Both the position numbers and the translations under genes were made by a program. The notes beneath the pieces are model-generated. The model worked only from the letters and a program-made list of their open reading frames with translations. It did not search any database and was not told the origin of the DNA. From an uncultured Desulfobacter sp. (lineage in GTDB: Bacteria > Desulfobacterota > Desulfobacteria > Desulfobacterales > Desulfobacteraceae): a stretch of DNA of 64,000 nucleotides. Shown in pieces: positions 15 through 3,436 of the stretch. The stretch spans positions 704,001 through 768,000 of the forward strand of contig OY762069.1 in assembly GCA_963665095.1 (NCBI GenBank), in the 5' to 3' direction. Position 1 is the stretch's first letter; every line of letters starts with the position of its first letter.

Positions 15-218
15 TTATGAGTATTCATAGATCTCATAGATTGTCTCTTCGCCTAACAGCGTATCAATTTTTTTCTGTAATGCCTGACGTTCCCCGGAGA
101 GTACCCACTGTCTCCAGTCGTCAGCCGACTGCCAGGTGCTGATCACCAGACTTTCCCCTTCCCGGTCACAGCGAAAGAAGGTCTCTCCTGAAATATAGCC
201 CTTCCTGCCGGTGGTTAC
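15..218 (-). pseudogene. antibiotic biosynthesis monooxygenase (ABM)-family protein, 5'-truncated remnant
   Basis: TTGRKGYISGETFFRCDREGESLVISTWQSADDWRQW...YEIYEYS is the C-terminal part of a small ABM-like protein; the N-terminus is replaced by the end of the 1073-aa ORF. Confidence 0.7.
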
Positions 219-3200
219 CGTTTTCTGTCTATGCGGTTCTTGCCTTTCGCCACAAGGTTGCTCCACGCCTGCCATTCGTCCTCTGTAAAAATCCCGGTTT
301 TCAGAGGTTTTTTAAACCTAAATTTATCAATACTGCCCAACCGTGCTTTTTTCACATACTGTGAGGCAGCGTGATCAATTATGTACATATTCCCTTTAAT
401 ATTCACACGTACAAATTTATGAATAAAGCTCCCGCTGACCTCTTGCCAATTTTCATATACCCGGTACTGCCCCGGTCCTGGAGACGCCGCATCAAAGGCG
501 GAGAGTTCAGCCTTGATAAATCCTTTTTTATCCAGTGATTTTACAACTGAATCAGCAGCAATTCCACAATCAATGGGTATCCCCTCTTTCACGGCACGGG
601 GTATCTCTCTGGCCGTCCGGCTTTTAGCAATAGCTCTTGCTTTGGCAATGACATCAACAACGTCACTATCCAAACGCGCTGATCCTGACTGCAGGCCTCC
701 AATACGATGTGGTAATTCGTCTGGTGATGCCAAGGACTTCCCCCGTCTTCCTGGAGCCACGCTGTTACCCGCTGTACCAGTTCTTTTTTTAAAAAGACTG
801 GACCGGGTGCCGCCGCGATTAGCAGCCGAGGGAAGATAACTGTTTCCAAAAGTGTCCATCTTGCCGGACCAGCCAGCCTGTCTTTCGACTGTAAAAAGAT
901 GGGAAGCGATTTTTTTAAGCTCTTGCGGACGATAGGCTGAATACCCGGCTCCTCCTGATGTGTGGCTCAGAGCATCACGAACCATATAAAACTTTTTCCC
1001 CCTTTTTATATACCAACCCTCCAAAGTGACAGCATGGCTCTGCTCGCCTACCTTGACAACAAAGGGAACGGAACCGCCTTCCTTCATAATAACGGTATCA
1101 AGGTTCTGCATAAACTTACCCGTCCGGACAGCCATGGACGGTGTTGTCTTGAATCCGAGGGCAGCGTATAGTTTACGCATCTCATCCGGTGAGAGCCCGA
1201 CCTCACTGCCGATCGCATGATTACCCAGAAAACGGCGCACCCCTTTTACAAAGTCAACGTAACTCATTCGCGACTTAAGCCCAAGCCGAGGATTATGGAA
1301 CATACTTTGTAAAACACAATCAGCCTTCATTTGGGGATGAATGGTCTCTGTATTAAACTGAAGCTTTACCTCATCAATATCACTGGCAAAAAGATCTTCA
1401 AGTTCCACCTTTCGCTTTTTCCCGGCTTCATAAAACCGGCTCCCTTTACTGTCAGTACCATTAATGGTTTTTGACCGCTTCTCCAGCCTCTTGGAGACGC
1501 GCTTCCAGCGACTGCGAAGCCGCGATTTATTACAGACTCCACCTTTCCCGGCCATACGGGAGCATAGGAGCCCCAGGAAAATATTGCACGAGTTGGCTGT
1601 AAACCTGGACGTGGCATTCGCTATTTTACGACCATCCTTGCTGAGCACTGCCTGATACAGCTTTACCCCGCTTTCTACTGTTTCCACAGTGCCTTTGCCG
1701 GTCATGAACACACCAAAAGAAATGAGAACCCCCTGGAAGATACGGCTTCCTCTGGTCAGATTGGCCAAACCGGAAAAAGCCCCGCCAATGGCAATCTGTT
1801 CAAACCGGGCAAAGCAGAGCCCGCCTTCCAGGATGCCACCAAGCACAGGATGCCCCATTCCCACTAACTCGTGCTTTACGTTAATTATATTTCTGTCATT
1901 GGCATTCGCTGTGTGTGCCCGATCAGTCCAGGCTTCGACAATACTCCCCCAGGCCCCAGAGATGTTTGCATCCCGGCGTTGTTGAAACTCCTTTTTAAGT
2001 GCCCGGGTAAAATGGGTAGACTGAATACAATCAAGATAACTAACCTCCCACAAAATTGCCTGGGCAACAATGCTCCCCGCCGTTTGCAGGAGCGCGTCGC
2101 TATATTTGCCTGCCACCTGCAACGAATGGCGGAACACCCCGCCCTTTTCTTGTCCCTGATGCAAAACAACCCTGGTTTCAGCCCCAAAGCGGATGTCGCC
2201 GCCATATAGATTGCCGATCAATGGTGCCCTATAGGCAATCATGTCCGTTCGTACAGAATAGGTAGCGCTGATTTCTGTTTCGTAAGAAATCCGATCCTTA
2301 TAGGCATTACCGCTGGAATCCACTAAATACCGTTCAAAAAGATTCGGCTTGCCTTTGGGTGCTTTGGAATAGACATTGAGTGCCCGTGCCCCCTTGTCAC
2401 TGACTCCGGGTAACAACTCTCCCGGCTGGGTAAGCGTGGCCACTATCGCATTTCCTTTGGGGCGGCTCGCCATATAAAAATTGCTGTAATCATCCGTCGT
2501 CAGGATATCAAGGGAGGCAAAACCATGTTGCAGGAGCAGATCAAAAAGGAAAAGAGCAACACAGGCCGCACCCGCCGCCGTGTCATCCGCATAATATTGA
2601 GAGATCTCACGAATCGCAGTGACCGGGCCGTCTTTGCCGCTATACTGGTTAAGCACCGCATTTCCCTTGGCGTCCCGGCTATATGTCCTGCGGACAGTCT
2701 CTCGCAGCTGGCAAAGATTAACCAAAGAATTCAAAAAAATGAACCTGCCGTCTTTACTAATCAGGTGCATGTGCCACACCTCGTCAAGCCGGTCGCTATA
2801 ACGGGTATAAAGTAGCTTGCCCAGCTGTAGCCGGGTGAGATAAATGCCACTGGTTTCGCTGACCACACCCGCCACGGCCGCCTGCCCTTTCTTCTTCCGG
2901 CTTCCCGCAACAGATCTAATTTCAAAAGTCTTACCCCCGGCATCATTCTTATAGCTCACAACCAGGTTTTCGTTCCAGGCAAAGAACATGCCCCGCTCAA
3001 AGAAGCTGCCCGAGGAATTACGTACAATTTCAACGCTACAGCGCAGGGGAGGCACAAGGGTATCCGGGTCCGGTTCTTCTTTACTCAGATAGATAATAGA
3101 GCCGTAGTTGCCTGATTCGCTGTCATAAAAATCTTCCCGCTGAGTCCGGCCGTCGGCATCAATCTGGATAAAAGACCTTTGTTTACCTTTTTCGCCCGAT

Positions 3201-3436
3201 AAAAGCGTTGTCCATTCCGTTCTTTGACGTCCCTGCACCCACACATATTCGAGAAGATTAAGATTCCCGTCCTCATCAAAACGAAGGTGATCACCCTGGG
3301 GTGTCTGATTAAAAAGACCCCGACTGAAAACCCGGCCCCGCAGACTAAAGAGGAGAGATTCTATCCGGTCGATCGCCCTTTGGGTGAGAATTTTATAACC
3401 ACCGGCTTTTTTAAGTAATTCTGAGGCATCACTCAT
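215..3436 (-). CDS. large polymorphic-toxin-like protein with a hydrophobic Gly/Ala-rich segment, a C39-like cysteine peptidase domain and a C-terminal SseI/PaTox-like papain-fold domain
   Basis: Uninterrupted 1073-aa ORF with AGGAG RBS; two C..H..D motif sets: QMKADC707..SH801AV..YMVRD821 and IDC957G..IH1006KFV..YIID1021HAASQY..DEW. Confidence 0.65.
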   Translation of the reverse strand: MSDASELLKKAGGYKILTQRAIDRIESLLFSLRGRVFSRGLFNQTPQGDHLRFDEDGNLNLLEYVWVQGRQRTEWTTLLSGEKGKQRSFIQIDADGRTQREDFYDSESGNYGSIIYLSKEEPDPDTLVPPLRCSVEIVRNSSGSFFERGMFFAWNENLVVSYKNDAGGKTFEIRSVAGSRKKKGQAAVAGVVSETSGIYLTRLQLGKLLYTRYSDRLDEVWHMHLISKDGRFIFLNSLVNLCQLRETVRRTYSRDAKGNAVLNQYSGKDGPVTAIREISQYYADDTAAGAACVALFLFDLLLQHGFASLDILTTDDYSNFYMASRPKGNAIVATLTQPGELLPGVSDKGARALNVYSKAPKGKPNLFERYLVDSSGNAYKDRISYETEISATYSVRTDMIAYRAPLIGNLYGGDIRFGAETRVVLHQGQEKGGVFRHSLQVAGKYSDALLQTAGSIVAQAILWEVSYLDCIQSTHFTRALKKEFQQRRDANISGAWGSIVEAWTDRAHTANANDRNIINVKHELVGMGHPVLGGILEGGLCFARFEQIAIGGAFSGLANLTRGSRIFQGVLISFGVFMTGKGTVETVESGVKLYQAVLSKDGRKIANATSRFTANSCNIFLGLLCSRMAGKGGVCNKSRLRSRWKRVSKRLEKRSKTINGTDSKGSRFYEAGKKRKVELEDLFASDIDEVKLQFNTETIHPQMKADCVLQSMFHNPRLGLKSRMSYVDFVKGVRRFLGNHAIGSEVGLSPDEMRKLYAALGFKTTPSMAVRTGKFMQNLDTVIMKEGGSVPFVVKVGEQSHAVTLEGWYIKRGKKFYMVRDALSHTSGGAGYSAYRPQELKKIASHLFTVERQAGWSGKMDTFGNSYLPSAANRGGTRSSLFKKRTGTAGNSVAPGRRGKSLASPDELPHRIGGLQSGSARLDSDVVDVIAKARAIAKSRTAREIPRAVKEGIPIDCGIAADSVVKSLDKKGFIKAELSAFDAASPGPGQYRVYENWQEVSGSFIHKFVRVNIKGNMYIIDHAASQYVKKARLGSIDKFRFKKPLKTGIFTEDEWQAWSNLVAKGKNRIDRKR

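What the first reader, a model, noticed from the sequence alone, without database searches (positions are those of the whole stretch)
215..3436. Intact 1073-aa toxin-like protein with two tandem papain-fold catalytic domains
Seen: an intact long ORF with a good RBS inside otherwise decayed DNA. It has an unrecognised N-terminal half with recurring D-x-x-G turns, a Gly/Ala-rich hydrophobic segment (about aa 520-630), a basic linker, a C39-like set (C707, H801, D821), a low-complexity linker, and a second set (C957, H1006, D1021). Established: polymorphic toxins use this trafficking / hydrophobic / autoprotease / effector order. Inference: a secreted effector whose internal peptidase may release the C-terminal enzyme. 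I recognise no Rhs core, VgrG, PAAR, FHA or signal peptide, so the delivery module may be undescribed.
Basis: partly seen in the sequence, partly recalled or inferred. Interest (0 to 1): 0.85.

Follow-up and report, generated by a model that had tools for sequence, protein, structure and literature searches.

The report
Protease-tipped toxin on an undescribed carrier
An intact bacterial gene joins a front half, shared with a scattered family of proteins that end in swappable toxins, to one predicted cysteine protease and a likely second enzyme; it is likely a weapon protein on a carrier that matched no library family we searched.

Summary
The 1073-aa ORF is real and intact in assemblies from four studies. 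Its front half is not an orphan. One relative (P0003) shares aa 7-679 at 32% identity and ends in an unrelated domain. A profile of aa 440-640 finds a family in Elusimicrobiota (10 of 401 genomes; 13 of 101 in one order) and in no other genome in two 400-genome samples of the host's phylum and order. Family members end in interchangeable tips, including CdiA_C followed by a SitI3 immunity gene and Ntox10 followed by Imm27. This is a polymorphic-toxin carrier with no Pfam, NCBIfam, PHROG or PDB match. The first triad (C707/H801/D821) is supported: conserved in 26 homologues, papain fold modelled at pLDDT about 90, Z 13 to staphopain and C39. The second triad has only a sub-threshold Tox-PLDMTX hit. 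Self-cleavage is untested, and half the protease's homologues carry no cargo behind it. This copy has no signal peptide and no immunity gene; both flanks are rearranged DNA. Export route unknown; a T6SS lies about 100 kb away. New variant of a known kind; interest 0.68.

The parts
215..3436 (-). Whole gene, 1073 aa (P0001)
   Evidence: one contig spans 188-3534/3538 with 0-14 substitutions and no gap in each of 4 runs from 4 studies
2138..3436 (-). aa 1-433: short helical start, then a beta-rich region; front part of the carrier; no signal peptide seen
   Evidence: Homologous to P0003; aa 285-374 matches the Elusimicrobiota profile on its own, P=7.6e-4; strands predicted at low confidence
1550..2137 (-). 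aa 434-629: Gly/Ala-rich helical module, the family signature; likely membrane-inserting (inferred)
   Evidence: Alignments A3/A4; long helices, pLDDT 42-83 by 10-residue block; profile without the query scores it 50 bits
1820..1894 (-). aa 515-539: conserved N-V-x-x-E...G-H-P...G-x-x-L-x-G-G motif
   Evidence: Invariant or near-invariant columns in 12 rows
1382..1549 (-). aa 630-685: basic linker; homology to P0003 ends here
872..1381 (-). aa 686-855: papain-fold (clan CA; C39/staphopain-like) cysteine protease, Q702/C707/H801/D821
   Evidence: H and D in 27 of 27 rows; Q, D706 and C in the 26 rows that cover them; pLDDT about 90; Z 13.3 staphopain C, 13.1 PCAT1 C39
662..871 (-). aa 856-925: low-complexity linker, predicted disordered
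   Evidence: pLDDT <50
218..661 (-). aa 926-1073: orphan tip, possible papain-fold deamidase/transglutaminase (C957, W998, H1006, D1021, Q1026)
   Evidence: Tox-PLDMTX E=0.005, 17.3 bits against cut-off 26.1; fits the C,W,H,D,Q signature in PMC3482391; fold unresolved
3443..3447 (-). Ribosome-binding site AGGAG
15..217 (-). 3' two-thirds of an ABM-family gene; not an immunity gene. The toxin's stop codon is the edge of a 333-bp segment duplicated at G000:C1:1983750-1984082
3505..3644 (-). 5' fragment of a group II intron, ending 68 bp above the start codon
   Evidence: Rfam RF02012 at 3443-3587, 40.4 bits over 34; four 91-94% copies elsewhere in the genome

Best explanation
This is likely a secreted polymorphic toxin or effector: a conserved carrier (aa 1-629) shared with an Elusimicrobiota-centred family bears a predicted papain-fold protease that would cut loose a likely second thiol enzyme at the C-terminus. 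Shown: the carrier is homologous across the family; family members end in unrelated tips, some of them known toxins with their immunity genes; domain 1 has a papain fold with a conserved triad. Inferred steps: (1) export by a route that needs no Sec signal, the genome's T6SS being the nearest candidate, whereas most Elusimicrobiota members have a signal-like N-terminus; (2) the beta-rich part binds a delivery partner or target surface; (3) the Gly-rich helices enter the target membrane and bring the C-terminal half across; (4) C707 cleaves in a flanking linker and frees the tip; (5) the tip modifies a protein by cysteine chemistry (deamidation, transglutamination or proteolysis). No immunity gene follows, so the target is likely absent from the producer (a eukaryotic microbe or distant cell), or the immunity gene was lost in the rearrangement at the stop codon. 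My odds: family assignment about 0.85, the release step about 0.5, T6SS export about 0.3.
For: P0003 shares aa 7-679 (32%, E 4.5e-93) with an unrelated C-terminus. P0004/P0005 (named Elusimicrobiota) shares both the helical motif and the protease, then a different tip. Carrier profile hits 10 of 401 and 13 of 101 genomes around G061. HHalign of P0001/P0003 against 14 Elusimicrobiota rows: probability 98.4, E 4.4e-15, aa 285-618. Tips over Pfam cut-off: CdiA_C in L023, Ntox10 in L041 and L049; next genes SitI3 (E 2.4e-16) and Imm27 twice. L022 and L041 are 73% identical over 871 columns and end in unrelated tips, each with its own small downstream gene. 7 of 18 members whose 3' flank I read have a 97-195 aa gene starting within -27 to +16 bp of the stop (judged by eye). 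Protease; a profile built without the query scores it 56 bits. It sits between two linkers. PMC3482391 reports internal papain-like domains as likely releasing peptidases and lists Tox-PLDMTX with no immunity protein. 8 of 12 listed in-gene variants are synonymous (p about 0.003 at an assumed neutral share of 0.25). T6SS genes at about C1:805-826 kb.
Against: No cleavage, export or toxicity was tested. 13 of 26 protease homologues have under 100 residues after the domain, which fits an effector better than a releasing enzyme. Among the carrier-bearing proteins I read, only P0005 also has it between carrier and tip. The tip has no homologue found and its Pfam hit is under cut-off; a hit of like strength in another genome (E 0.0013) showed no similarity to it. 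The helical module is only mildly hydrophobic, and the carrier model is low-confidence (mean pLDDT 48.7). No VgrG, PAAR or adaptor gene is adjacent; the 549-aa gene I took by eye for the cluster's spike had no Pfam hit. 11 of 18 members lack an immunity-like neighbour, four have no evident tip (L017-L020), and some carry non-toxin enzymes (HD, GGDEF, GH15, M14, AAA).
Confidence: 0.5

Rival explanations
1. Same carrier, but both C-terminal domains are effectors that act in trans; the first protease attacks target proteins and nothing is released by self-cleavage.
For: 13 of 26 homologues of domain 1 are terminal or nearly so. L045 has a weakly matching domain at its far end (E 0.003). Best structural matches include staphopains, which are secreted proteases, and a CdiA C-terminal toxin (8ssm, Z 11.1). 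Several family members stack two or more enzymes behind the carrier (L023 kinase-like plus CdiA_C).
Against: In P0001 and P0005 the domain lies between carrier and tip with linkers either side; C39 leader peptidases score equally well (Z 13.1).
Confidence: 0.25
2. A stranded cassette: a once-functional toxin gene acquired laterally, cut from its promoter, delivery genes and immunity gene, now silent or unexported.
For: The stop codon is the edge of a duplicated foreign segment, and an intron fragment begins 68 bp above the ATG. No sigma-70-like site on the gene's strand was found between the ATG and position 3989. Not found in 60 relatives including 24 of the same genus. No second carrier copy in the genome.
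Against: Intact with no frameshift in four studies and in four cluster members; synonymous changes outnumber others 8 to 4; neighbouring mobile elements are visibly decayed while this ORF is not.
Confidence: 0.13
3. A surface-tethered enzyme scaffold for prey or substrate digestion, like the giant proteins of Omnitrophota, with the helical module as a membrane anchor in the producer and not a translocator.
For: Family members of 2700-5000 aa carry GH15, M14, M50, AAA and GGDEF domains, and two have a SecA-DEAD-like motif by eye; bioRxiv 10.1101/2023.11.21.568195 describes giant proteins with SecA-DEAD, C39 and hydrolase domains.
Against: Shorter members carry nuclease-type toxin tips with cognate immunity genes, which makes sense only if the tip can reach a cytoplasm. 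P0001 has no signal-like N-terminus and no strong transmembrane segment. I did not test homology to Omnitrophota proteins.
Confidence: 0.12

Closest known systems
Polymorphic toxin systems (Zhang et al. 2012, PMC3482391)
   Same: Conserved N-terminal part, variable C-terminal toxin, internal papain-like peptidase, adjacent immunity genes in relatives (CdiA_C/SitI3, Ntox10/Imm27).
   Different: The carrier matched none of the Pfam, NCBIfam or PHROG models; this copy has no immunity gene, signal peptide or adjacent secretion gene.
Peptidase C39 (PCAT1, ComA) and staphopain C47, clan CA
   Same: Fold (Z 12-13, rmsd 2.6-3.0 A over 132-151 residues) and Q/C/H/D order.
   Different: No sequence hit to either Pfam family; 11-18% identity; not fused to an ABC transporter; belongs to a subfamily found in 24 of 101 genomes of one Elusimicrobiota order, on a long branch within it.
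Tox-PLDMTX (PF15645), papain-fold toxin domain
   Same: C, W, H, D, Q residues in order; C-terminal position; no immunity gene.
   Different: 17.3 bits against cut-off 26.1, covering 55 of 142 model positions; fold not confirmed.
Rhs/YD-repeat toxins
   Same: Beta-rich region followed by a processing step and a variable tip; several Rhs-type structures appear among non-significant Foldseek rows (E 0.015-0.13).
   Different: No RHS Pfam hit, no DPxG motif and no Y[DN]xxG[RNQ] repeat in P0001; the beta region is about 400 aa, far shorter than an Rhs shell (recalled, about 1200 aa).
Omnitrophota giant proteins (bioRxiv 10.1101/2023.11.21.568195)
   Same: The largest family members are multi-enzyme giants; C39-like peptidases are proposed there to cut the chain.
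   Different: P0001 is 1073 aa without SecA-like domain or many transmembrane helices; shared ancestry was not tested.

Membership tests
Polymorphic toxin system | Conserved N-terminal module with variable, unrelated C-terminal domains among homologues | tested here: met
Polymorphic toxin system | Known toxin tips paired with cognate immunity genes within the family | tested here: met
   L023 CdiA_C + SitI3; L041 and L049 Ntox10 + Imm27
Polymorphic toxin system | Immunity gene directly downstream of this copy | tested here: not met
   Next is an ABM gene fragment. Not every tip family has a listed immunity protein (Tox-PLDMTX has none in PMC3482391), so this weakens only the 'classical pair' claim for this locus
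Polymorphic toxin system | Identifiable export signal or linked secretion system | tested here: inconclusive
   Signal-like hydrophobic stretch (score 1.8-3.5) in 11 of 11 Elusimicrobiota N-termini scored, against 0.99 for P0001 and 1.55 for P0003 (crude window score); unlinked T6SS
Polymorphic toxin system | Toxic activity of the tip | not testable with these tools
   Needs expression assay
Papain-like clan CA protease (domain 1) | Papain fold | tested here: met
Papain-like clan CA protease (domain 1) | Conserved Cys-His-Asp with oxyanion Gln | tested here: met
   distances in the model could not be read, so convergence is inferred from fold and conservation
Peptidase C39 proper | Match to the family model and ABC-transporter or leader-peptide context | tested here: not met
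   No PF03412/PF13529 hit at E<=10; no transporter fusion
Autoprocessing peptidase | Cleavage in cis | not testable with these tools
   Architecture is mixed: 13 of 26 homologues terminal
Tox-PLDMTX (domain 2) | C, W, H, D, Q signature | tested here: inconclusive
   Residues present in order, but only model positions 32-86 align
Tox-PLDMTX (domain 2) | Score over the Pfam cut-off | tested here: not met
   17.3 against 26.1 bits
Tox-PLDMTX (domain 2) | Papain fold | tested here: inconclusive
   Single-sequence region of the model, pLDDT mostly <50; fold searches covered only residues 5-178 of that model
Rhs/YD toxin | YD repeats and DPxG core-end motif | tested here: not met
Rhs/YD toxin | Beta-shell fold | tested here: inconclusive
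   Low-confidence model; no Foldseek match at E<=0.001
Omnitrophota-type giant protein | Homology of the carrier to Omnitrophota giants | not tested
   No Omnitrophota genome was searched

The most novel reading that the evidence does not exclude
The beta-rich plus Gly-rich helical module is an undescribed, self-translocating toxin-delivery device native to Elusimicrobiota, used both for classical toxin-immunity pairs and at the head of 3000-5000-aa multi-enzyme giants; a signal-less branch of it has moved into another phylum, where it delivers a self-releasing cysteine-enzyme effector against non-kin, possibly eukaryotic, cells.
Probability: 0.35. Interest if true: 0.85.

Novelty: new variant of a known kind. 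Interest (0 to 1): 0.68.

Why it matters
New carrier modules define new routes by which bacteria put proteins into other cells, and each one is a handle for mining unknown toxin tips and immunity genes. This one gives a little-studied phylum a polymorphic toxin family, links ordinary toxin-immunity pairs to giant multi-enzyme proteins through one shared module, and supplies a compact 1073-aa member whose processing can be tested with two point knockouts. Several tips and downstream genes found here match no Pfam model (L021, L022, L044, L050, P0003, P0005, and this tip).

Tried and rejected
Whole-protein library scans: nothing in Pfam, NCBIfam, PHROGs or PDB sequences; domain-wise PDB sequence searches gave only chance rows. 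Word-based homologue search found only the protein itself at full length and 3-4 proteins with profiles; these are weak negatives. ESM Atlas: first hits 0.79 (papain-like and glutamine-amidase clusters) and 0.78, below the tool's chance level, so leads only. No relative in metagenome or viral contig scans, plasmids or phages. Tip homologues in 101 Elusimicrobiota genomes: 2 weak rows, both housekeeping enzymes by eye, rejected. PF15645 over its cut-off in 0 of 101 and 0 of 201 genomes, so no alignment could be built for the tip. Carrier fold: no Foldseek match at E<=0.001 and only generic helical-hairpin rows at Z<=9.1; this says nothing on fold novelty. The 86-aa downstream ORF was considered as immunity and rejected. 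D-x-x-G turns rejected. Trees: P0001+P0003 form a supported pair on a long branch; placement and donor are unresolved; the protease tree is a quick, unfinished search with L077 left out. In alignment A6 row L077 was given without its first half, hence 26 and not 27 rows for Q/D/C. L044 is in two frames and L020 starts out of frame; both were used as found. No RNA holder listed. No earlier finding of this scan. No complex prediction was run.
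Full report
Observation. The frame 215-3436 (-) encodes 1073 aa, far beyond chance (longest ORF in 2000 shuffles 290 aa), with AGGAG 6 nt upstream. The D-x-x-G turns are not enriched (p=0.12), and aa 520-630 is Gly/Ala-rich but only mildly hydrophobic. Four cluster members differ by 3-4 residues from P0001. In runs from four studies a single contig covers the gene without a gap; of the 12 in-gene variants among the rows shown (36 rows were not shown), 8 are synonymous.

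Surroundings. The window is G000:C1:704001-768000. The gene has no paralogue there and was not found in 60 relatives, 24 of the same genus. Its stop codon is the exact edge of a 333-bp segment that recurs at 96% at C1:1983750-1984082; that segment holds the 3' two-thirds of an ABM-family gene, whole at the other site, and the tail of a sigma-54 regulator. So the small ORF downstream is a fragment, not an immunity gene. Upstream, 68 bp above the ATG, begins a group II intron fragment, then another repeat and IS remnants. The gene therefore stands without its original neighbours. The same 3' junction is seen in the four runs, with 30 bases beyond it, one short of the tool's bridging rule.

Relatives. 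phmmer over 1.84 billion representatives gave two others. P0003 (909 aa, unnamed) aligns over aa 7-679 at 32% and then has an unrelated C-terminus with its own Cys, His and Asp by eye. P0004/P0005 (1890 aa; NCBI names it Elusimicrobiota) shares the helical motif and the first protease and ends in a domain I read by eye as ADP-ribosyltransferase-like (no Pfam hit). A profile of aa 440-640 hit 10 of 401 genomes of that phylum, one being the seed genome; a wider profile hit 13 of 101 in its order. In the host's phylum and order only G000 was hit, 1 of 401 each. These are samples, and word-based first looks can miss members. Homology is not circular in score: a profile of 14 Elusimicrobiota rows alone gives P0001 50 bits and P0003 54 bits, though those rows were found with query-seeded profiles. 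Profile-profile comparison runs over aa 285-618 (probability 98.4), and the part before the helices matches on its own (P=7.6e-4). Most Elusimicrobiota members have several hundred extra N-terminal residues and a signal-like start; P0001 and P0003 begin near the beta-rich region and lack it. They form a supported pair on a long branch, so the donor is unknown.

The family is polymorphic. Behind the carrier lie CdiA_C with a kinase-like domain (L023), Ntox10 (L041, L049), an HD domain (L042), weak RNase A-like and EndoU-like hits (L021, L043), only proline-rich repeats (L017-L020, P0008), or thousands of residues with GH15, GGDEF, AAA, M50 and M14 domains (L024, L026). L023 is followed by a SitI3 immunity gene, L041 and L049 by Imm27. 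7 of 18 members with a readable 3' flank have a tightly linked small gene; 3 of the 7 match immunity families; 11 have none. L022 and L041 are 73% identical across the carrier and differ in tip and next gene. L049 and L050, from one genome, share their carrier end and differ in tip.

Domain 1 (aa 686-855). A two-row profile hit 24 of 101 genomes of the same order. In the alignment H801 and D821 are in 27 of 27 rows, Q702, D706 and C707 in the 26 rows that cover them. The model is confident here and matches staphopain C (Z 13.3, rmsd 2.7 A, 151 residues) and the PCAT1 C39 domain (Z 13.1, 3.0 A, 137). It is a clan CA protease, not assignable to C39 or C47 proper. 13 of 26 homologues have under 100 residues after it; the others continue into longer cargo. 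It is itself a mobile module, present in only a few of the carriers read.

Domain 2 (aa 926-1073). No homologue was found. It scores 17.3 bits against Tox-PLDMTX, cut-off 26.1, and has C, W, H, D, Q in the order listed for that family in PMC3482391. The model is unreliable here, with two strands and a helix around H1006-Q1026 at pLDDT 44-69. A similar weak Pfam hit elsewhere proved unrelated. I put a papain-fold thiol enzyme at about 0.65.

Carrier fold. The 19-row model is low-confidence overall (48.7): strands over aa 50-427, long helices over aa 434-629. Fold searches were uninformative. Rhs membership fails on sequence motifs. That Gly-rich helical stretches before toxin tips help membrane crossing is recalled knowledge; here it is inference.

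Mechanism. Most likely: export without a Sec signal, binding through the beta-rich part, membrane entry through the helical module, C707-dependent release of the tip, and cysteine-dependent modification of a target absent from the producer. Only the modular architecture, the family's toxin-immunity pairs and the first protease fold are shown. A T6SS cluster lies about 100 kb away (VipA, VipB, TssF, VasE and IcmF over cut-off), unlinked. Rivals: two trans-acting effectors (0.25), a stranded silent cassette (0.13), a surface enzyme scaffold (0.12).

Literature. Full-text searches: 'Elusimicrobiota' + 'polymorphic toxin' 0 papers; with 'toxin' + 'immunity protein' 0; 'Elusimicrobia' + 'polymorphic toxin' 1, PMC3482391; a six-term carrier search 0; some searches gave listings only. 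PMC3482391: I saw passages and section 16; of its two mentions of elusimicrobia one was shown, in a taxon list for Ntox36; the last 57,000 characters and the supplements were not seen and could list family members. bioRxiv 10.64898/2026.03.19.712371: passages only, not relevant. Subscription journals are mostly not searched, so 'undescribed' means not found in these searches and libraries.

Verdict. A real gene and a real polymorphic-toxin family with a carrier that matched nothing searched: a new variant of a known kind. Interest 0.68.

Noticed in passing
window 3505-3772: Two repeats lie back to back around a hairpin at 3659-3676: a group II intron 5' fragment (3505-3644, -) and an 89-bp piece (3684-3772, +) whose other copies lie just upstream of a 446-aa ORF that I read by recall as an intron reverse transcriptase. 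Fits two introns inserted either side of a terminator.
   Followed up: partly
window 3773-4277: 505-bp piece 98% identical to C1:6595758-6596262, a decayed transposase (ISAs1-like by recall); IS66 TnpB at 5279-5632.
   Followed up: partly
G000:C1:805000-826000 (L086, L087): T6SS cluster; the 549-aa gene that may be its spike and the 190-aa gene that may be its tube have no Pfam hit, so the system looks divergent.
   Followed up: partly
L051-L080: A papain-fold protease subfamily without Pfam match in 24 of 101 genomes of one Elusimicrobiota order, in open frames of 300-3700 aa, some followed by kinase-, PIN-, FHA- or GGDEF-like domains by eye.
   Followed up: partly
L024 5248-19959 (-), L026 1395-16421 (+): Two 4900-5000-aa proteins in one genome start with this carrier, then a SecA-DEAD-like motif (by eye) and many enzymes; they recall Omnitrophota giant proteins.
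   Followed up: partly
L017-L020, P0008: Carrier-only members ending in Pro-rich repeats of the type PxPDAxIIxPG, with no tip and no immunity-like neighbour; role unexplained.
   Followed up: no
L021 10084-10377, L022 6904-7491, L044 8930-9247, L050 4048-4407: Small genes tightly linked to unclassified tips; candidate new immunity families, no Pfam hit over cut-off.
   Followed up: partly
L023 3344-4975 (-): A 544-aa frame ending in the same protease family lies just past the toxin-immunity pair.
   Followed up: no
window 6452-7690 (-): Secreted-looking GH5 glycoside hydrolase among IS remnants.
   Followed up: no
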